Below, piece by piece: positions 9,301 to 62,393 of a DNA stretch of 64,000 bases; the first letter of the stretch is position 1, and each line of letters starts with the position of its first letter. The notes beneath the pieces are model-generated. The model was not told the origin of the DNA. It worked only from the letters and a program-made list of their open reading frames with translations, and did no database searches. Location: sequence record MN709127.1; one strand, 5' to 3'. This DNA is from Escherichia phage Ec_Makalu_002. The position numbers and the translations under genes are program-made.

Positions 9301-9463
9301 CGGACTTAAAGCAAGCGAACGAAGATTTGCAATGAGTCCACTGTTTGACCAGTCGGCGGTATCATTCTCTATGTTCCGTGAACTTGTAGATAAACGGTTG
9401 AAGGATAATATAGGGAATCCACGCGATCCGAAGAATCCGACACAGAGGAAAATTAATGGCTAA
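6377..9463 (+). CDS. 7: Baseplate wedge protein gp7
   Basis: 1028 aa; synteny and size (T4 gp7 ~1032 aa). Confidence 0.8.
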   Translation: MIKAPSVTSLTIEKLSANQAYITWDDVGENFFYFVELAETRTRDGEIIPVDELSWVNLGYTAEQNWFEDKSLFPEYYYKFRVAVAAEGFEQSKWVETEEFQTFKTNAYNFSMMREFNLANEFIKEKFTYDNREYVKFNTDLIQASLMKEDFVFSPEYANMTNISNYIVVDENFHEIQDHIEKVCIDINRTMLAEMNGVLYLFERFQPIVKVSNDKGQSWKAYKAFNDRVGNPVSRTCVYQSKTTTYVLGYDRIFYGRQASDTRWSADDVRFSDDTITFAKVGDENDLGFDVEVFGVFSRLTGDTTKYAEAMACSDDYLWVGAKDVIRRIRLKNTPVDTVQGSPTFGEKIFDPDVIRVTGNDKAVIQKMDVIDGKLLVFVTGEVKQRYQDPTKPENVVPSDDAGVYLIGSDGLSFQRVFGNTPQEREYIQHGFSNMSTNGDEVFISHYNHHFESILPDPETAAKYELGEAVKYSQEPTYLTDKKIHQTTFRASYDDLRIWELGPQAYYNEADYTWMRRNGVRVWITNDNRPLVVYPEVIYTQEVDTSGILDQNRVNREVYDKGTVTCYLNNVKFEGFKQYASGVMFHKNTGEIIGFYQFNYRVRDQVGVYWKPTNVAFVAELQNQVREVPWVPVHYDREQDPDLRPLLNKMTPDSFLLENENFRKFSEYYLQFLSDGSGTYYNKLKNLIKNKYPREQDAYEYLWPEMNKRNIYADKNKRDAVVRFFESRKSDFYSTKGVEASYKFLFKLLYNEDVEIEVESQAGLEYDIVVSSTNIDEDIVGRTIYTPTGRANVTYLEREYEGGRLRWRVTIHNLIGRFEEGQVIKSEKTAFEGMILVGVRGKELLSSSIDYINRSRSQYTMKIKSALPVSRYANDVMRFVHPVGFGFIGVTLLTMFINSGLSMKHTETIIQSLKNYKFDSGLPSVYPDRVADLDVDGNIKKDPLTGKALYLTSPLIGEEFPVPPEYDQENSELFHGLKASERRFAMSPLFDQSAVSFSMFRELVDKRLKDNIGNPRDPKNPTQRKING

Positions 9464-10451
9464 TGAAAATAGTGTGATCTATCGCTCAATCATTACTAGT
9501 AAATTCAGAACGGAAAAACTTCTGAATTTCTATAATTCTGTAGGCGATGGGGCAAATCAAATTACAATTTATGGAACGTTTGGACGTTCGGAGCCGTGGT
9601 CAGAAAACGAAAAAGAGGTGGGCTTTGCCCCACCTTATCCGACCGATTCAACGGCTGGTGTTGTTGACATGTGGACCCATATGATGGGGGCGGTTAAGAT
9701 TAATAAATCACTTCTTGATGCGGTTATCCCTCGTAAAGATTGGGGTGATACCGGACAGGATAACCCGCGCACATTCTTTATCAATGACATTGTTGTTGTC
9801 AACTCAGCACCATATAACCGAACTGATGTTGGTAGCGGCTGGATGGTGTATCGCGTAACCGATGTTCCTGATCGCGGTTACTGCTCGATTTCAAGCATTG
9901 ACGCTAAAGTCGAGTGTTTGAAGTTGGGCGGAAAGTGGACACCTACTCATGAATCAATCGCGCCACCTGTAGGAAAGGGCGATTCTATTGATATGGGTGA
10001 TGGGTATCGTTGGGAATATCTGTACACAATTCCACCTGATGCGGCGATCAACCGTTGCACCAATGAACATATTGTTGTACCGTTCCCCGATGAACTGCGA
10101 CAAGATCCGGCGCGCTGGGGCTACGACAATGTGATCACATGGTATAATGACTATAATCTGCTTTATCGGCTGAAAGTAGTAACTTTGCGTTTTCAGGCTT
10201 ATATGGACTCTGCGCAATTCCCAACTACCGCGTTAGTGGGTAACACTGGTTTCCGTCAGTTAAGCATTATCCTTAACCCATTGGAAAAGAAAGCACGCCC
10301 TAGCGATCCAGACGTTAAAGCGGTTCAAGATAAGTACCGTCCGCAAGACTTAGAGCCACACTCAGGAGAAATGATCTACATGGAAAACCGACAACCTATC
10401 GTTCGGTCATTAGATCAAACAGAACTTGTTTCTGTACTGTTTGAGTTCTAA
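9456..10451 (+). CDS. 8: Baseplate wedge protein gp8
   Basis: 331 aa; synteny and size (T4 gp8 334 aa). Confidence 0.8.
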   Translation: MANENSVIYRSIITSKFRTEKLLNFYNSVGDGANQITIYGTFGRSEPWSENEKEVGFAPPYPTDSTAGVVDMWTHMMGAVKINKSLLDAVIPRKDWGDTGQDNPRTFFINDIVVVNSAPYNRTDVGSGWMVYRVTDVPDRGYCSISSIDAKVECLKLGGKWTPTHESIAPPVGKGDSIDMGDGYRWEYLYTIPPDAAINRCTNEHIVVPFPDELRQDPARWGYDNVITWYNDYNLLYRLKVVTLRFQAYMDSAQFPTTALVGNTGFRQLSIILNPLEKKARPSDPDVKAVQDKYRPQDLEPHSGEMIYMENRQPIVRSLDQTELVSVLFEF

Positions 10452-10462
10452 GTGTATGATTT

Positions 10463-10496
10463 AAAAGCCAATTCGAGAGAGTTGGCTTTTTCTATT
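10463..10496 (+). terminator. Rho-independent terminator after gene 8
   Basis: Hairpin AAGCCAA/TTGGCTT followed by T-run. Confidence 0.6.
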
Positions 10497-10503
10497 TTGG
10501 GTG

Positions 10504-10531
10504 TTGACAATCTTGTCTGATAAGGTATAAT
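10504..10531 (+). promoter_or_regulatory. Sigma70-type promoter (TTGACA-16 bp-TATAAT)
   Basis: Consensus -35 and -10 hexamers; GGAGG site precedes ATG 10561. Confidence 0.6.
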
Positions 10532-10560: not shown

Positions 10561-10818
10561 ATGGCACGTCGTAAATTTACAGATAATTGTGAAGCAATTC
10601 AGGTATCCCCTTGCGGTTGGGATGTGATCGCGAACGGTGAAAAGATCGGAGAGATCATCGATCATACTCATTCATCACTAGCCGATTACACCGATGAACT
10701 ATGGGAGGGTATCAACTTCATGAATGACACTAAACGATTCAAGACTATCGACGAAGCTATCTATTTTGTGTATAATCCAACTTTCGGTATGTGGACTGAT
10801 AGAAAATGGCACGCGTAA
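10561..10818 (+). CDS. Hypothetical protein (cassette gene 1)
   Basis: 85 aa; ATG with GGAGG site; first gene downstream of the sigma70-type promoter. Confidence 0.5.
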   Translation: MARRKFTDNCEAIQVSPCGWDVIANGEKIGEIIDHTHSSLADYTDELWEGINFMNDTKRFKTIDEAIYFVYNPTFGMWTDRKWHA

Positions 10819-11135
10819 ATATTAAACGGCATTATACAATGGGTAAACCAAAACATCCAATGCATAAAGTGTTTTGGGGCTTACATCTTCAAGAAAAATG
10901 GCATGATAACTATTGGTTTTGTGACCATGATAAGAAGTGGCATTCTCAAGATGAAGTTAATGCGATGATGGAACAGGGTATAAAGTTTAATTACTCTAAT
11001 TATGACCATAGCATTACTTGTATTCGAAAAATGAAACGGTTTATTCGAAAGAATCCACAATTTAAAAACTTTGTGTTCTTTATGTCTCATGTTTATTTGG
11101 GGCATAGCGTTACCGTAACAGCAAAGGTTAAATAA
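10806..11135 (+). CDS. Hypothetical Trp/His-rich protein (cassette gene 2)
   Basis: 109 aa; overlaps upstream ORF; stop overlaps next start (TAATG). Confidence 0.5.
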   Translation: MARVNIKRHYTMGKPKHPMHKVFWGLHLQEKWHDNYWFCDHDKKWHSQDEVNAMMEQGIKFNYSNYDHSITCIRKMKRFIRKNPQFKNFVFFMSHVYLGHSVTVTAKVK

Positions 11136-11974
11136 TGGCACGACTTTCCAAACAAGAACAAAAATTACACGATCGGGCAATGGAGCTAATCAATTCAGAC
11201 CGCCCATTGACATATGAAGAAAAGGAGTTTTGCTATAATAACTATCATGGAGATGGTCTAGGTGGTTCCGGTGCATTCTTTACCCCAGAGGGGCTTGCGT
11301 GGGATTTTACCATTGACGCACACTGCACCGGAAAAGTATTAGATTTGTGTGCTGGGATCGGTCGCTTATCTTTCTGTATGTTACATCGATGCAGACCAGA
11401 AAAGATCGTATGCGTCGAACTCAATCCAGAATTTTCGCGGATTGGCAAGCGACTATTACCGGAGGCAGAATGGATCACCAGCGATATATTCGAATTTGAG
11501 TCAAACGAAAAATTCGATGTGGTGATCAGCAATCCACCTTTCGGTAAAATCAATACAACCGACACAAAGGATGTATTTGAATACACAGGCGGCGAATTTG
11601 AATTTAAGGTTATGACGTTAGGCCAGAAGTTTTCCGATGTAGGTTATTTTATTGTTCCTTCTGGTTCCGCTGGGTTTGCGTATTCTGGTAGACCTTATTA
11701 TGATGGATCAGTGAAGTCTAATAAATATCTAAAGTGGAGCAAACAAACTGGTCTTGTGACTTATGCCGGATGTGGGATCGATACATCAATTTATCGCGAT
11801 GAATGGCACTGCACCAACGTTTTAACAGAAGTGGTTGAGGTTCGGTATTACGAGAAAGAAGCCGTAGAAGCGCCTAAATCGCGTCCTAACGAACAAATAG
11901 AAGAAAGTAAGGAGATTACCTTACCAGAACAGGAAAGCGAGTCTGGTACGCTCTCAGACTTGTTTGACATTTAA
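11135..11974 (+). CDS. SAM-dependent amino-methyltransferase, gamma-class-like (probable DNA N6-adenine MTase)
   Basis: Motifs FFTPEG (motif X-like), VLDLCAGIGRL (motif I), VVISNPPFG (motif IV NPPF) in that order. Confidence 0.6.
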   Translation: MARLSKQEQKLHDRAMELINSDRPLTYEEKEFCYNNYHGDGLGGSGAFFTPEGLAWDFTIDAHCTGKVLDLCAGIGRLSFCMLHRCRPEKIVCVELNPEFSRIGKRLLPEAEWITSDIFEFESNEKFDVVISNPPFGKINTTDTKDVFEYTGGEFEFKVMTLGQKFSDVGYFIVPSGSAGFAYSGRPYYDGSVKSNKYLKWSKQTGLVTYAGCGIDTSIYRDEWHCTNVLTEVVEVRYYEKEAVEAPKSRPNEQIEESKEITLPEQESESGTLSDLFDI

Positions 11975-11976
11975 TT

Positions 11977-12005
11977 AAAAGCCGTCCTTGTGGGCGGCTT
12001 TTTTG
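11977..12005 (+). terminator. Rho-independent terminator after methyltransferase gene
   Basis: Hairpin AAGCCG...CGGCTT followed by TTTTT. Confidence 0.6.
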
Positions 12006-12014
12006 TATGTATTT

Positions 12015-12022
12015 TATAAATA
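12015..12022 (+). promoter_or_regulatory. T4-type late promoter TATAAATA upstream of gene 9
   Basis: Exact TATAAATA about 28 nt upstream of ATG 12050. Confidence 0.6.
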
Positions 12023-35369: not shown

Positions 35370-35957
35370 CTAAATATCTAACCAAGACAAGTCAGATCCG
35401 CCCAAGATTTTTTCGACGGCGGATCTATTTTCTTGATGATATAAGTTAAAACATGGTATCCCATGTCTACGGGCAACATAAACAGCAATTCGAGTTCCTC
35501 CCGAAACGATTCCATTAACTTCTTTCGCCCAGAATATCACACAATCTACAGGATCATCAAGTGTCTCACCTAAGACTTGAGCAACATTTCTAGAAAACAG
35601 ATTTTGCATGTATAACGGTATAGAACGAGGATTATCATAAACGTGTTCTAATTCATCCATCGCCAGATTTTTTTGTTCTAAGGTTTGCCATGCAATCACA
35701 TCATGACCGTTATGCTTGTGATCATAAAACTTCCAATTTGGAATGAAAATTTTTCTATAATCTGGATCGTAATACTTCATGAAAGCATTGTCCATACCGT
35801 AAGCCCCTCCAGAATGCGCTACAACGCGATTTTCTGACAATACCCTCCCAATGGTACTAGCCATTATCAAAATGTCGCTAGGCGCTTTTCTAGAGCCTAT
35901 TAAAGCACATCTACGAAGTGGTTTTACTCCAAATAGATCTTGTAACTGGTCAAACAT
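35370..35957 (-). CDS. SLOG/DprA-like Rossmann-fold protein
   Basis: Motifs ALIGSRKAPSD and VVAHSGGAYGMD resemble the DprA/Smf-LOG nucleotide-binding core; ATG with GGAGG site. Confidence 0.5.
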   Translation of the reverse strand: MFDQLQDLFGVKPLRRCALIGSRKAPSDILIMASTIGRVLSENRVVAHSGGAYGMDNAFMKYYDPDYRKIFIPNWKFYDHKHNGHDVIAWQTLEQKNLAMDELEHVYDNPRSIPLYMQNLFSRNVAQVLGETLDDPVDCVIFWAKEVNGIVSGGTRIAVYVARRHGIPCFNLYHQENRSAVEKILGGSDLSWLDI

Positions 35958-60421: not shown

Positions 60422-60898
60422 TTATTTTTCTTGATGCTCGCGCTCGTACTTTTCGAAATAAAATTCTACTGGCTGATCGTGGATTGAAAGCAAGCCAAAG
60501 CGTTTAGCCGCACGTAATCCCATGTTACGTTGAATGTACTTCTGGAAGTTCTCGCGTATACACTTACGCCAGTATTCTAAGCCCATACAGCTTTTGTAAA
60601 GATTGCATTGCACACAAGCCGGATTCATGTTGTCAAGTATATCGTGCTCCGGTTTATGCATTCCTACAACCTTATACTTCCACGACCCATCATCATTACG
60701 GGCAATTCGTCCATTTTCATCATAGACTACTTTTGAGCGTCGCAATACTGGTTTGATGTGGTCTGCGTGCCAGCGATCCCCTAGTTCCTCGCCACAATAG
60801 GCACAACGTCCACCGTATTTCATTTTCAGGATCTGGCGTTGCTCTTTCTTTGACAATTTTTTAGGTTTAGGGGCTTTCGCCCCTTCATTATCACACAT
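60422..60898 (-). CDS. HNH endonuclease
   Basis: CAYCG ... WHADHIKP ... N ... CVQCN (HNH zinc-finger nuclease signature); start overlaps 3' end of ligase gene. Confidence 0.7.
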   Translation of the reverse strand: MCDNEGAKAPKPKKLSKKEQRQILKMKYGGRCAYCGEELGDRWHADHIKPVLRRSKVVYDENGRIARNDDGSWKYKVVGMHKPEHDILDNMNPACVQCNLYKSCMGLEYWRKCIRENFQKYIQRNMGLRAAKRFGLLSIHDQPVEFYFEKYEREHQEK

Positions 60899-62393
60899 CG
60901 AATACCTCTTTTACTGTATTTGCAGTGGTCTTGTCGTAGCGAATACGTTTGATGATTGGGAGAAATAAAGAGAACTCCGGTTCATCTTCTTTACGTGATT
61001 TGCTGCGGATATATCCGTTGCATGTCATCTCAATGACTTTTCCAATCAGGTTATGACGGTCAGCCCATAACATTTCTCGGTCAAGTTCATTTCGACGATC
61101 GAACGGAATTACACGTTCAATACCATCATCACCTTTTTCGGTTGTGGTGTCTGTCAATCCCGATCCGGTGTTAGTCATCATTCGTCCGCACGCACTACGG
61201 ACAGTAAAACCGCCTACCTTGTTAGGTTCTTTACTGTGCGGATATACATCAACAATTTCCGCGTCGAAGTCAATCACTTCTTTAAATTTAACCTGGTCTT
61301 TACTGCGACGATCTTCAAATACACCATGTAAATTTTTAAGGATAATACCTTCTAATCCCATGTTGACATAACGATGATATACTTCGCGAGCTTCATCGAT
61401 ATTGTTAACTACAGTATTTTCGATTATCTGAACACGAGGATCGTTAAGTTCTTCAACAATCTGTTTTAGTTCTTCGAATCGATCTTTATATTGCTTCGTT
61501 GCTTTCTCGTTTCCGTAATACACATCACGGTCGATAACATCCCAGACAGTGTAAACAATACATTGGGCTTCTTCTTTTGGAATAGTTCCTTTCAGTGATT
61601 TGTTGAGGATACCATTTCCGGTCTGACGGTCTGCAACAACGGATTCTTTCACTGCTTCCGCTACTGGCGTTAATGGCATTTCCTCTTCTTCAAATATCCA
61701 TGATAGAGTACCATCATAAACGCTCTCAACGAAGTTCTGCGCTGGTGTTTGAGAAAGGGTAGGCATATATACCAACTCACCATCTAAAACAATTCCACGG
61801 CCTCGTAGACGCTCTAAAACAGCAAACAAATCATCCAGCCCCTGATAGGTATTACCTGAACGGGTATAGATTGCTAATGTTTCTCCGTCAATATCAGCCA
61901 TACCACGAGCGCCATCGCTTTTAAGTTGTGCATACGCCGGATATTTGATATTGGCAATAGTCTTATCAGAACATGACGATGCAAGGTGGCACGGCTGCTG
62001 AGGAATCAGCTTCTTCCATACCTTGTTTGCGGTGGTAGCGGAACAACCGCATTCCAGATCACGATTCAGGACCATCATTGCAACTTTAGCATCATCTTCT
62101 GACAAGCAAGTCAGAGTATCGGTAACTAGCTGTAATGCAGCATTACCAGTTACTTGACGCGTGGCAAGTTTATTTTTAAAGACCTGTAATGCACCGGATA
62201 AAGACAATACAGACGAATAGCGAGACGGTTTATCGTATTTCTTTACGCCAAACGTAACCTGCTTGCAATATGCCAGATAAAAGCATTCTTTCAGCGTTTC
62301 ATTGCTTGCAGATTCTTTCAGGATCTTTTCTTTCAGCGATGTTTTGTCAGTAGCTGCAAGCTGATTAATGATATTAAGAATTGACATTTTCAC
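60891..62393 (-). CDS. 30: ATP-dependent DNA ligase gp30
   Basis: 500 aa; adenylation motif I YAQLKSDGAR (KxDG); size close to T4 gp30. Confidence 0.85.
   Translation of the reverse strand: MKMSILNIINQLAATDKTSLKEKILKESASNETLKECFYLAYCKQVTFGVKKYDKPSRYSSVLSLSGALQVFKNKLATRQVTGNAALQLVTDTLTCLSEDDAKVAMMVLNRDLECGCSATTANKVWKKLIPQQPCHLASSCSDKTIANIKYPAYAQLKSDGARGMADIDGETLAIYTRSGNTYQGLDDLFAVLERLRGRGIVLDGELVYMPTLSQTPAQNFVESVYDGTLSWIFEEEEMPLTPVAEAVKESVVADRQTGNGILNKSLKGTIPKEEAQCIVYTVWDVIDRDVYYGNEKATKQYKDRFEELKQIVEELNDPRVQIIENTVVNNIDEAREVYHRYVNMGLEGIILKNLHGVFEDRRSKDQVKFKEVIDFDAEIVDVYPHSKEPNKVGGFTVRSACGRMMTNTGSGLTDTTTEKGDDGIERVIPFDRRNELDREMLWADRHNLIGKVIEMTCNGYIRSKSRKEDEPEFSLFLPIIKRIRYDKTTANTVKEVFDV

What the first reader, a model, noticed from the sequence alone, without database searches (positions are those of the whole stretch)
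11135..11974. Compact gamma-class-like amino-methyltransferase of unknown target
The 279-aa protein has FFTPEG (motif X-like), VLDLCAGIGRL (SAM-binding motif I) and VVISNPPFG (catalytic NPPF motif IV) in the linear order seen in gamma-class N6-adenine DNA methyltransferases (M.TaqI/HsdM-like). It is short for a DNA methyltransferase with a full target-recognition domain and ends in an acidic tail. It is not the alpha-class Dam-type enzyme of T4. The substrate (DNA adenine, RNA or protein) cannot be decided from sequence.
Basis: partly seen in the sequence, partly recalled or inferred. Interest (0 to 1): 0.55.

Follow-up and report, generated by a model that had tools for sequence, protein, structure and literature searches.

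The report
Sliding-clamp-tethered phage methyltransferase
A small early phage methyltransferase ends in the same peptide the phage's DNA polymerase uses to grip the sliding clamp, so it probably rides the replication machinery to methylate new DNA, a coupling known in animals (DNMT1-PCNA) that I could not find described for phages or bacteria.

Summary
The 279-aa ORF and its three motifs are real. The window is a Krischvirus (RB49-like T-even phage). The gene is already annotated, inconsistently, as a putative, DNA or release-factor methyltransferase (RB49ORF143w, PHROG 3820). The catalytic domain alone cannot assign a substrate: it lies about equally far from gamma-class DNA enzymes, METTL5/RsmC RNA enzymes and HemK. 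It is a disordered linker ending in SGTLSDLFDI. The phage's own DNA polymerase ends in VASLTDLFDI, which is homologous to the RB69 gp43 peptide crystallised in the gp45 clamp. Only these two of 1,582 six-frame ORFs end in DLFDI. A derived motif otherwise marks RNase H (N-terminus) and DNA ligase (loop), exactly where the T4 orthologs bind gp45. Homologs in phages and prophages that use a beta clamp end in textbook beta-clamp motifs (QLSLFDAA, QLDLFGEAA), far above background, and sit in replication modules, sometimes beside a phage dnaN. Best reading: an early-expressed, clamp-tethered DNA N6-adenine methyltransferase that acts on replicating DNA. Binding and substrate are inferred, not shown. 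Published HPLC/MS found no detectable modification in Krischvirus TB34 DNA, which argues against bulk methylation.

The parts
10463..10490 (+). Intrinsic terminator after baseplate gene 8; it isolates the cassette from late read-through
   Evidence: 12-bp stem plus T-run; annotated as a terminator in GEC-3S
10504..10531 (+). Sigma-70 (early-type) promoter TTGACA-16-TATAAT, 12/12 match
   Evidence: annotated as a promoter in GEC-3S. Early timing is inferred, not measured.
10561..10818 (+). ORF85, first gene of the cassette, function unknown, found only in Krischvirus
   Evidence: PHROG 16603; no Pfam or PADLOC hit; found only in Krischvirus loci
10806..11135 (+). ORF109, second gene, function unknown, found only in Krischvirus; its stop overlaps the methyltransferase ATG (TAATG)
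   Evidence: PHROG 12630
11135..11974 (+). Methyltransferase gene (279 aa): catalytic core aa 1-240, linker aa 241-269, terminal motif aa 270-279
11276..11293 (+). Motif X (FFTPEG); F49 and T50 are invariant in the family
11336..11368 (+). Motif I, SAM-binding loop (VLDLCAGIGRL)
11519..11545 (+). Motif IV, catalytic (VVISNPPFG); N133, P134, P135 and G137 are invariant
11855..11941 (+). Disordered, acidic, fast-evolving linker (aa 241-269)
   Evidence: pLDDT below 60. 23-28 of 29 residues identical among close orthologs, against 10/10 for the terminal motif. The linker is unrelated in P0002, which keeps the motif.
11942..11971 (+). Predicted gp45 sliding-clamp-binding peptide SGTLSDLFDI (aa 270-279)
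   Evidence: The phage's own gp43 ends VASLTDLFDI, homologous to the RB69 gp43 tail KKASLFDMFDF (PDB 1b8h per PMC3012046). Only these two of 1,582 ORFs end in DLFDI. Binding itself is inferred.
11977..12002 (+). Intrinsic terminator that closes the cassette
   Evidence: 11-bp stem, 6 GC pairs, T-run
12015..12022 (+). T4-type late promoter TATAAATA for gene 9
   Evidence: Read directly from the sequence; the consensus is from established T4 biology

Best explanation
The gene encodes an active SAM-dependent amino-methyltransferase with an NPPF catalytic motif. It is transcribed early from its own sigma-70 promoter, as a three-gene cassette inserted between the late baseplate genes 8 and 9. The compact catalytic core has no target-recognition domain and is joined by a roughly 30-residue disordered acidic linker to a C-terminal peptide (TLSDLFDI). 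That peptide mimics the C-terminus of the phage DNA polymerase gp43 (SLTDLFDI), which docks into the hydrophobic pocket of the gp45 sliding clamp. I infer that the enzyme is recruited to clamps loaded on replicating phage DNA and methylates adenine N6 in nascent duplex DNA. The clamp would supply the DNA tethering that the enzyme itself lacks. The likely benefit is prompt, replication-coupled protection or marking of a genome that carries ordinary cytosine. The same design recurs across the family: members in phages and prophages that replicate with a beta clamp carry a QL[SD]LF-type beta-clamp motif at the same position. Shown here: the gene, its motifs, the tail identity, the family-wide motif enrichment and the replication-module context. 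Inferred: clamp binding, DNA as substrate, adenine N6 as the target atom, early timing and biological role.
Against: There are no binding or activity data; everything is computational. HPLC/MS of Krischvirus TB34 DNA found no detectable modified nucleosides (PMC13390438), and TB34 carries an intact copy with the tail. Bulk or non-specific adenine methylation of virion DNA is therefore unlikely. That paper also reports no m6dA for Dam-encoding phages, so sparse site-specific methylation may fall below what it reports. By sequence, the nearest solved relatives include RNA enzymes (PH1948/METTL5, RsmC). Pfam MTS matches 28 of 36 members, while N6_Mtase and Eco57I match only 5-6. The core is acidic (pI 5.2) and has no recognisable DNA-recognition domain. 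About 40% of family members have no tail, including the closest prophage relatives and some phages that have their own clamps (Aeromonas and jumbo phages), so the tail is accessory. In RB16 and KP15 the tail (LFTFTIE) shares only the LF core with the cognate gp43 tail (LFGDDW). The Krischvirus consensus regex was refined after I had seen the sequences.
Confidence: 0.55

Rival explanations
1. It is an RNA adenine or guanine amino-methyltransferase (METTL5/PH1948-, RsmC- or TrmN6-like) that modifies host or phage rRNA or tRNA. The tail resemblance to gp43 would then serve another purpose or be incidental.
Against: Those matches are weak (E about 1e-6 or worse) and cover only the shared Rossmann core. 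An RNA role does not explain the clamp-type motifs that track replisome type across hundreds of lineages. It does not explain the placement in replication and recombination modules or next to dnaN. Sliding clamps encircle duplex DNA, not RNA.
Confidence: 0.15
2. It is a protein methyltransferase (PrmC/HemK- or PrmB-like glutamine N5, or lysine) that uses the clamp as a docking site to methylate a replisome or clamp-bound protein.
Against: The NCBIfam scores are far below the cut-offs (35.6 against 199 bits). The FFTP motif X is typical of nucleic-acid gamma-class enzymes and is not a HemK feature (established knowledge). There is no HemK N-terminal domain. Public 'prmC' names are automatic transfers.
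Confidence: 0.07
3. The tail is primarily regulatory. The protein competes with gp43, gp33 or gp55 for gp45 (or with host proteins for the beta clamp) to tune replication or late transcription, and catalysis is secondary.
For: The tail is almost identical to the polymerase tail. gp45 is also the late-transcription activator through gp33 and gp55 (established T4 biology). A phage protein that uses the beta clamp for late transcription has recently been reported (Mu MuC).
Against: The catalytic and SAM-binding residues are invariant across the whole family, so enzymatic activity is under selection. Many members function without any tail. Competing with its own polymerase would be costly to the phage.
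Confidence: 0.08
4. The tail resemblance is chance or a hitch-hiking fragment with no clamp function, and the protein is an ordinary free-diffusing orphan DNA methyltransferase.
For: The shared stretch is short: 5 identical residues, or 7 of 8 similar. The closest prophage relatives lack a tail. The last six codons, including the stop, match at 17 of 18 nt, which is compatible with a small transfer.
Against: Only 2 of 1,582 ORFs share the ending. The motif is invariant while the linker drifts. Independent lineages carry a different clamp motif at the same position, about 200-fold above background.
Confidence: 0.1

Closest known systems
Eukaryotic DNMT1-PCNA coupling (PIP-box-mediated recruitment of a DNA methyltransferase to the replication clamp)
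   Same: A DNA methyltransferase carries a short linear clamp-binding motif in a disordered region and is thereby recruited to newly replicated DNA. This is an analogy in how it works, drawn from established knowledge.
   Different: The enzymes are unrelated: DNMT1 is a C5-cytosine multidomain enzyme, and this is a 240-aa NPPF amino-methyltransferase. The clamps differ (PCNA against gp45 or beta). Here the motif is at the extreme C-terminus. The interaction is not demonstrated here.
T4/RB69 gp45 clients: gp43 C-terminal tail, DNA ligase NTase loop, RNase H N-terminus, gp33 and gp55 tails
   Same: The same kind of terminal or loop hydrophobic peptide is present. In this phage the methyltransferase tail (TLSDLFDI) is nearly identical to the gp43 tail (SLTDLFDI) and resembles the ligase loop (TLSWIFEE) and the RNase H N-terminus (TLNDFFDD).
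   Different: No methyltransferase is among the described gp45 partners in the literature I could search.
Gamma-class N6-adenine DNA methyltransferases (M.TaqI, type I HsdM, Eco57I/MmeI family, lmo1582/YtxK type, MADS Mad2)
   Different: There is no target-recognition domain or specificity subunit. The protein is only about 240 aa. N6_Mtase is below its cut-off. No cognate nuclease is present.
METTL5 / PH1948 / Ta1320 18S rRNA m6A methyltransferases
   Different: Similarity is weak (E about 1e-6) and limited to the Rossmann core. The family has its own conserved N-terminal helices, an LPEAxW motif and a C-terminal subdomain. The replication context and clamp motifs have no counterpart in METTL5.
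T4 Dam (alpha-class, D12 family)
   Same: A phage-encoded orphan adenine methyltransferase without a nuclease partner.
   Different: It has a different class and motif order. The phage has a separate true Dam (PF02086, 7e-32) with no clamp-like tail.

Membership tests
PHROG 3820 / RB49ORF143w orthologs (phage 'DNA methyltransferase', function untested) | Full-length profile match | tested here: met
   4e-115, residues 1-250 of the protein against 1-246 of 255 profile positions; 57 Krischvirus records hold a full-length copy
Gamma-class N6-adenine DNA methyltransferase | Linear motif order X - I - IV with (N/D)PP(F/Y/W) as motif IV | tested here: met
   FFTPEG aa 48-53, LDLCAGIG aa 69-76, NPPF aa 133-136; invariant in the family
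Gamma-class N6-adenine DNA methyltransferase | Curated family model above its gathering score (PF02384 N6_Mtase or PF07669 Eco57I) | tested here: inconclusive
   Eco57I scores 28.3 against a cut-off of 25.3 (passes). N6_Mtase scores 16.3 against 20.4 (fails). Only 5-6 of 36 family members hit either model, whereas 28 hit MTS.
Gamma-class N6-adenine DNA methyltransferase | Target-recognition domain after motif VIII, or a separate specificity subunit | tested here: not met
   The fold ends about 105 residues after NPPF and the remainder is a disordered tail. The neighbouring ORF85 and ORF109 are confined to Krischvirus and have no HsdS-like hits.
Gamma-class N6-adenine DNA methyltransferase | Transfers methyl to adenine N6 in DNA | not testable with these tools
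   Needs a methylome or an in vitro assay. Published HPLC/MS of TB34 DNA reports no detectable modification.
gp45 sliding-clamp client (T4-type PIP-like peptide) | Disordered terminal or loop peptide resembling the cognate gp43 C-terminus | tested here: met
   TLSDLFDI against SLTDLFDI; unique in the genome; disordered; conserved while the linker drifts
gp45 sliding-clamp client (T4-type PIP-like peptide) | The phage encodes the gp45 clamp and its loader | tested here: met
   gp45, gp44 and gp62 are annotated in a 99.7%-identical genome. gp45 matches RB69 and T4 gp45 at about 1e-40.
gp45 sliding-clamp client (T4-type PIP-like peptide) | Physical, motif-dependent binding to gp45 | not testable with these tools
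Needs SEC, ITC or a pull-down.
Beta-clamp partners carrying a QL[SD]LF clamp-binding motif (applies to homologs, not to the window protein) | Consensus penta- or hexapeptide at a disordered terminus | tested here: met
   Examples are QLSLFDAA, QLDLFGEAA and QLALF. 19 of 78 are strict against a null of 0.39. 21 of the 22 motif-bearing ORFs among 884 are this methyltransferase. 14 loci also encode dnaN.
METTL5/PH1948-type rRNA m6A methyltransferase | Significant full-length homology to the family | tested here: inconclusive
PrmC/HemK release-factor glutamine methyltransferase (the name used in some GenBank records) | NCBIfam equivalog score above its cut-off | tested here: not met
   TIGR03534 scores 35.6 bits against a cut-off of 199.1; TIGR00536 scores 16.9 against 115.5
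T4 Dam (D12 class) | PF02086 match | tested here: not met
   There is no PF02086 hit for this protein. The separate Dam gene matches at 7e-32.
Known anti-phage defence methyltransferases (BREX PglX, MADS Mad2, DISARM) | Full-length model match and the system's partner genes nearby | tested here: not met
   The Mad2 hit covers only residues 35-139 (profile positions 259-370 of 492). The neighbours are baseplate genes and two small unknown ORFs.

The most novel reading that the evidence does not exclude
This is a widespread, previously unrecognised class of replisome-riding methyltransferases in phages and prophages. The enzyme is minimal and has no recognition domain. It uses the sliding clamp as its DNA-binding module. 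Its C-terminal peptide has been repeatedly re-tuned to whichever clamp replicates the element: gp45 in T4-like phages, and host or phage-encoded beta clamp elsewhere. This would give replication-coupled DNA methylation in prokaryotic viruses, and in cytosine-DNA T4-like phages possibly a way to mark or protect nascent phage DNA.
Probability: 0.45. Interest if true: 0.8.

Novelty: new variant of a known kind. Interest (0 to 1): 0.62.

Why it matters
Replication-coupled recruitment of a DNA methyltransferase by the sliding clamp is a textbook feature of eukaryotic maintenance methylation. In the literature I could search, no methyltransferase appears among the partners of the bacterial beta clamp or of T4 gp45. 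If the tail works as predicted, several things follow.

- It adds a new client class to both clamp 'tool-belts'.
- It explains how a methyltransferase without a recognition domain can find DNA.
- It gives a simple sequence rule (catalytic core, linker, clamp motif) that assigns DNA as the substrate of more than 1000 protein clusters now annotated only as 'methyltransferase'.
- It offers a natural experiment in convergent evolution of short linear motifs, with gp45-type and beta-type tails on one enzyme family.

It is also relevant to how unmodified-cytosine T4-like phages (Krischvirus, Pseudotevenvirus, Slopekvirus) cope with restriction. The hypothesis can be tested directly with a peptide-binding assay and a tail-deletion phage.

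Tried and rejected
2. **Strict covariation of methyltransferase tail with cognate polymerase tail.** This holds in Krischvirus (near identity). In RB16, KP15 and L040 only the LF or FDF core is shared, so I claim 'same motif class' and not exact covariation.
3. **Recent DNA transfer of the gene 43 3' end.** The last six codons, including the stop, match at 17 of 18 nt, but there is no similarity upstream. Transfer can neither be shown nor excluded.
4. **ORF85 and ORF109 as obligate partners or specificity subunits.** They occur only in Krischvirus and are absent from a related phage that has the gene in the same slot (L094) and from all other lineages.
5. **Defence-system membership.** PADLOC gave only partial methyltransferase-domain hits.
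6. **Experimental data.** I found no methylome for Krischvirus. The KP15/KP27 paper lists only Dam and Dcm and misses the homolog KP15_25. The Durham collection paper gives a negative HPLC/MS result for TB34.
7. **Long family members as fusion clues.** Only P0125 carries a partial N6_N4_Mtase fragment, which is weak support.
8. **Complex prediction of the tail with gp45.** This was not possible with the structure tool available (single chains only, restricted inputs).

Full report
**Observation.** The ORF at 11135-11974 (+) exists, starts with ATG and encodes 279 aa. FFTPEG (aa 48-53), VLDLCAGIGRL (aa 68-78) and VVISNPPFG (aa 129-137) are present in that order, and the last 41 residues hold 12 acidic and 4 basic residues. 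The gene is real and conserved. PHROG 3820 matches full length at 4e-115. Pfam MTS (36.5 bits) and Eco57I (28.3 bits) both exceed their gathering scores. A profile of 22 homologs finds 1030 clusters at 50% identity, 347 of them below 1e-30. F49, T50, G74, G76, E95, N133, P134, P135 and G137 are invariant across 36 diverse members, so this is an active enzyme under selection.

**Where it is.** The window is 99.7% identical to Escherichia phage Ec_Makalu_003, a Krischvirus (RB49-like T-even phage). The gene is the last of three translationally coupled ORFs (85, 109 and 279 aa) inserted between baseplate genes 8 and 9. The insert is a self-contained unit: a terminator after gene 8 (10463-10490), a 12/12 sigma-70 promoter (10504-10531), the three ORFs, a terminator (11977-12002) and then a TATAAATA late promoter for gene 9 (the same features are annotated in GEC-3S). 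It therefore looks like an early cassette embedded in a late operon. A full-length copy is present in 57 of 58 matching Krischvirus records. Public names vary: hypothetical protein, putative methyltransferase, DNA methyltransferase, or release factor glutamine methyltransferase/prmC. The RB49 ortholog RB49ORF143w was listed in 2006 with a weak Pfam MTS hit (PMC1524935).

**What the catalytic domain says.** It says little beyond 'NPPF amino-methyltransferase'.

- NCBIfam's best hits are PrmC and L3-Gln methyltransferase, far below their cut-offs (35.6 against 199 bits).
- PDB sequence and profile searches give PH1948 and Ta1320 (METTL5-type), RsmC, a TrmN6-like protein, EcoR124 HsdM and HemK, all weak.
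- Foldseek is generic.
- PADLOC's best hit is the MADS Mad2 DNA methyltransferase (8e-16, covering motifs X-IV), but that library contains only DNA enzymes.
- The AF2 model (pLDDT 83.5) shows a Rossmann core that ends near residue 240, with no separate recognition domain and a disordered tail.

**The tail.** Aligning homologs showed that lytic-phage versions carry a variable acidic or proline-rich linker and a conserved extreme C-terminus, while the enterobacterial prophage versions stop right after the domain. I then read the C-termini of the replication proteins in the 99.7%-identical Makalu_003 genome. DNA polymerase gp43 ends ...KVASLTDLFDI* and the methyltransferase ends ...ESGTLSDLFDI*. 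The gp43 tail aligns position for position with RB69 gp43 ...KKASLFDMFDF. That is the peptide co-crystallised in the hydrophobic pocket of the gp45 sliding clamp (PDB 1b8h; PMC3012046). Of the 1,582 six-frame ORFs of at least 40 aa in the whole genome, only these two end in DLFDI. At the DNA level the last six codons, including the stop, match at 17 of 18 nt, and nothing upstream is similar.

Among close orthologs the last ten residues are invariant while the linker varies. P0002, a relative with a 67%-identical core, has an unrelated linker but ends SGTLTDLFDI. This is how a short linear motif behaves.

A consensus [ST]Lxx[LIFM]F[DE] occurs five times in the ~252-ORF proteome (shuffle null 0.62 +/- 0.78; maximum 4 in 500 shuffles). 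The sites are the gp43 C-terminus, the RNase H N-terminus (TLNDFFDD), a DNA ligase internal loop at aa 229 (TLSWIFEE), this protein, and one ORF antisense to annotated genes. The first three are exactly where the T4 orthologs carry their gp45-binding peptides (PMC3012046; PMC6212786). The T4 ligase site was itself discovered through similarity to the gp43 tail and then proven by SEC, ITC and crystallography. I refined this regex after seeing the sequences, so its statistics are indicative only. The DLFDI result is not affected by that.

**The family.** The same position carries a different clamp motif in other lineages.

- Among the 150 best representatives, 78 have tails of 10-120 aa. Nineteen of these carry a strict Q[LFMIV]x[LFMI][FL] in the last 14 residues (shuffle null 0.39 +/- 0.62) and 41 carry a broader LF motif (null 2.4 +/- 1.5). 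The strict motif never occurs elsewhere in the linkers. QL(S/D)LF is the consensus beta-clamp-binding motif (PMC11139829).
- In 80 IMG/VR loci, T4-like phages that have their own gp45 carry gp43-like tails, for example RB16/KP15 ...[DN]LFTFTIE against gp43 ...LFGD(D)W, and L040 ...TFDFRIE against gp43 ...SLSDLFDF. Contigs of 40-66 kb with no gp43 or gp45 hit end in ...TQLSLFDAA...SQLDLFGMAA...VQADLFGVAA or ...LQASLFGDAA.
- Among 884 distinct ORFs in those loci, 22 have the motif in the last 14 residues, and 21 of them are this methyltransferase.
- In 80 species-level bacterial genomes from Proteobacteria, Bacteroidota, Actinomycetota, Acidobacteriota and Planctomycetota, about 60 copies end in such a motif, including many Rhizobiales copies ending ...EQLALL.

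**Context agrees.**

- In RB16 and KP15 the gene lies between primase 61/61.1 and helicase 41.
- In 14 loci it sits in the module dnaN(beta clamp)-helicase-gp157-MT-A70-this gene-DUF6511-PrimPol.
- Elsewhere it is coupled to a DnaB-like helicase or lies next to RecT/YqaJ, and one locus has an integrase.
- The tail-less enterobacterial copies are the terminal gene of prophages.

**Interpretation.** The most economical reading is an early-expressed DNA (probably N6-adenine) methyltransferase that a flexible linker and a C-terminal clamp-binding peptide tether to the gp45 clamp on replicating DNA. In this reading the clamp stands in for the missing DNA-recognition domain. The Krischvirus enzyme is closer to the tail-less prophage versions (54-61% identity) than to those of other T4-like genera (44-50%). 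It also sits at a different locus. This suggests a separate acquisition followed by gain of a gp43-like tail, which would make the tails convergent. That step is inference.

**Against.** Nothing here shows binding or activity. HPLC/MS of Krischvirus TB34 DNA found no detectable modification (PMC13390438), and TB34 has an intact copy with the tail. Bulk, non-specific adenine methylation of packaged DNA is therefore unlikely. The same paper reports only cytosine derivatives even for Dam-encoding phages, so sparse site-specific m6A may go unreported. The core is acidic (pI 5.2). About 40% of family members lack a tail, so the tail is accessory. RNA enzymes are among the nearest solved relatives.

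**Novelty.** The gene and its 'methyltransferase' label are already public. A clamp-binding tail on a phage or bacterial methyltransferase is not mentioned in a 2024 beta-clamp review (no occurrence of 'methyltransferase' or 'methylase'). It also does not appear in the clamp reviews, the T4 replication literature or the jumbo-phage survey I could search. The KP15/KP27 study overlooked the homolog altogether. My search covers open-access papers only. I rate this a new variant of a known kind: an orphan DNA-type methyltransferase with replisome tethering analogous to DNMT1-PCNA. It is of moderate to high interest because it can be tested directly with a peptide-binding assay and a tail-deletion phage.

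Noticed in passing
window 60891-62393 (-); loop motif at about 61689-61709: The ATP-dependent DNA ligase (PHROG 114, Pfam DNA_ligase_A_M) has an internal DGTLSWIFEEEE at aa 226-237. This is the positional counterpart of the T4 ligase gp45-binding loop EPEGLDFLFD. The ligase also ends ...TVKEVFDV*, which resembles the gp43 and methyltransferase tails.
   Followed up: partly
window 35370-35957 (-): A DprA-like recombination-mediator protein (PHROG 768) starts MFDQLQDLFGVKPLRR. This is a QLxDLF-type motif at the extreme N-terminus, ahead of the domain, and makes the protein a possible further clamp client.
   Followed up: partly
MN882349.1 142461-143408 (-), outside the window (L010 17462-18409): RNase H carries TATLNDFFDD at aa 9-18. 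This matches the known N-terminal gp45-binding site of T4 RNase H and the Krischvirus motif consensus.
   Followed up: partly
window 10561-11135 (+): Two small ORFs (85 and 109 aa; PHROGs 16603 and 12630) are co-transcribed with the methyltransferase. They have no Pfam or PADLOC hits and occur only in Krischvirus. A related phage (L094) has the methyltransferase in the same gp8-gp9 slot without them.
   Followed up: partly
L084 9408-10001 and 13 related loci: An MT-A70-family methyltransferase lies immediately upstream of the clamp-motif methyltransferase, in a phage replication module that also encodes its own dnaN beta clamp. This gives two different adenine-methyltransferase families side by side.
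   Followed up: partly
L075 6630-7313: A phage-encoded GcrA-like regulator lies 3 kb upstream of the DnaB-coupled methyltransferase. GcrA-family proteins read m6A-marked promoters in Alphaproteobacteria.
   Followed up: no
L090 7505-9151: A YqaJ-type exonuclease is fused at its C-terminus to a T7 gp5.9-like RecBCD-inhibitor domain.
   Followed up: no
L096 (NZ_JBHSCL010000010.1, 'Flagellimonas marina', 178,077-bp contig): This contig carries an RB16-type copy with the tail PAQNLFTFTIE, identical to those of enterobacterial T4-like phages. It is probably a T4-like phage genome present in a bacterial assembly.
   Followed up: no
Literature (PMC13390438); phages TB34 (OX001802.1) and SAP (OZ034687.1): Two Krischvirus isolates that are 99.96% identical differ completely in cytosine modification: TB34 has none and SAP has glucosyl-hmC. 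Neither has a known hmC pathway. The authors leave this unexplained. Both carry this methyltransferase, which as an NPPF amino-methyltransferase is not an obvious candidate.
   Followed up: no
window 9456-10451 (+): Baseplate protein gp8 ends ...LVSVLFEF*, a superficially similar hydrophobic C-terminus. This is probably chance in a structural protein.
   Followed up: no
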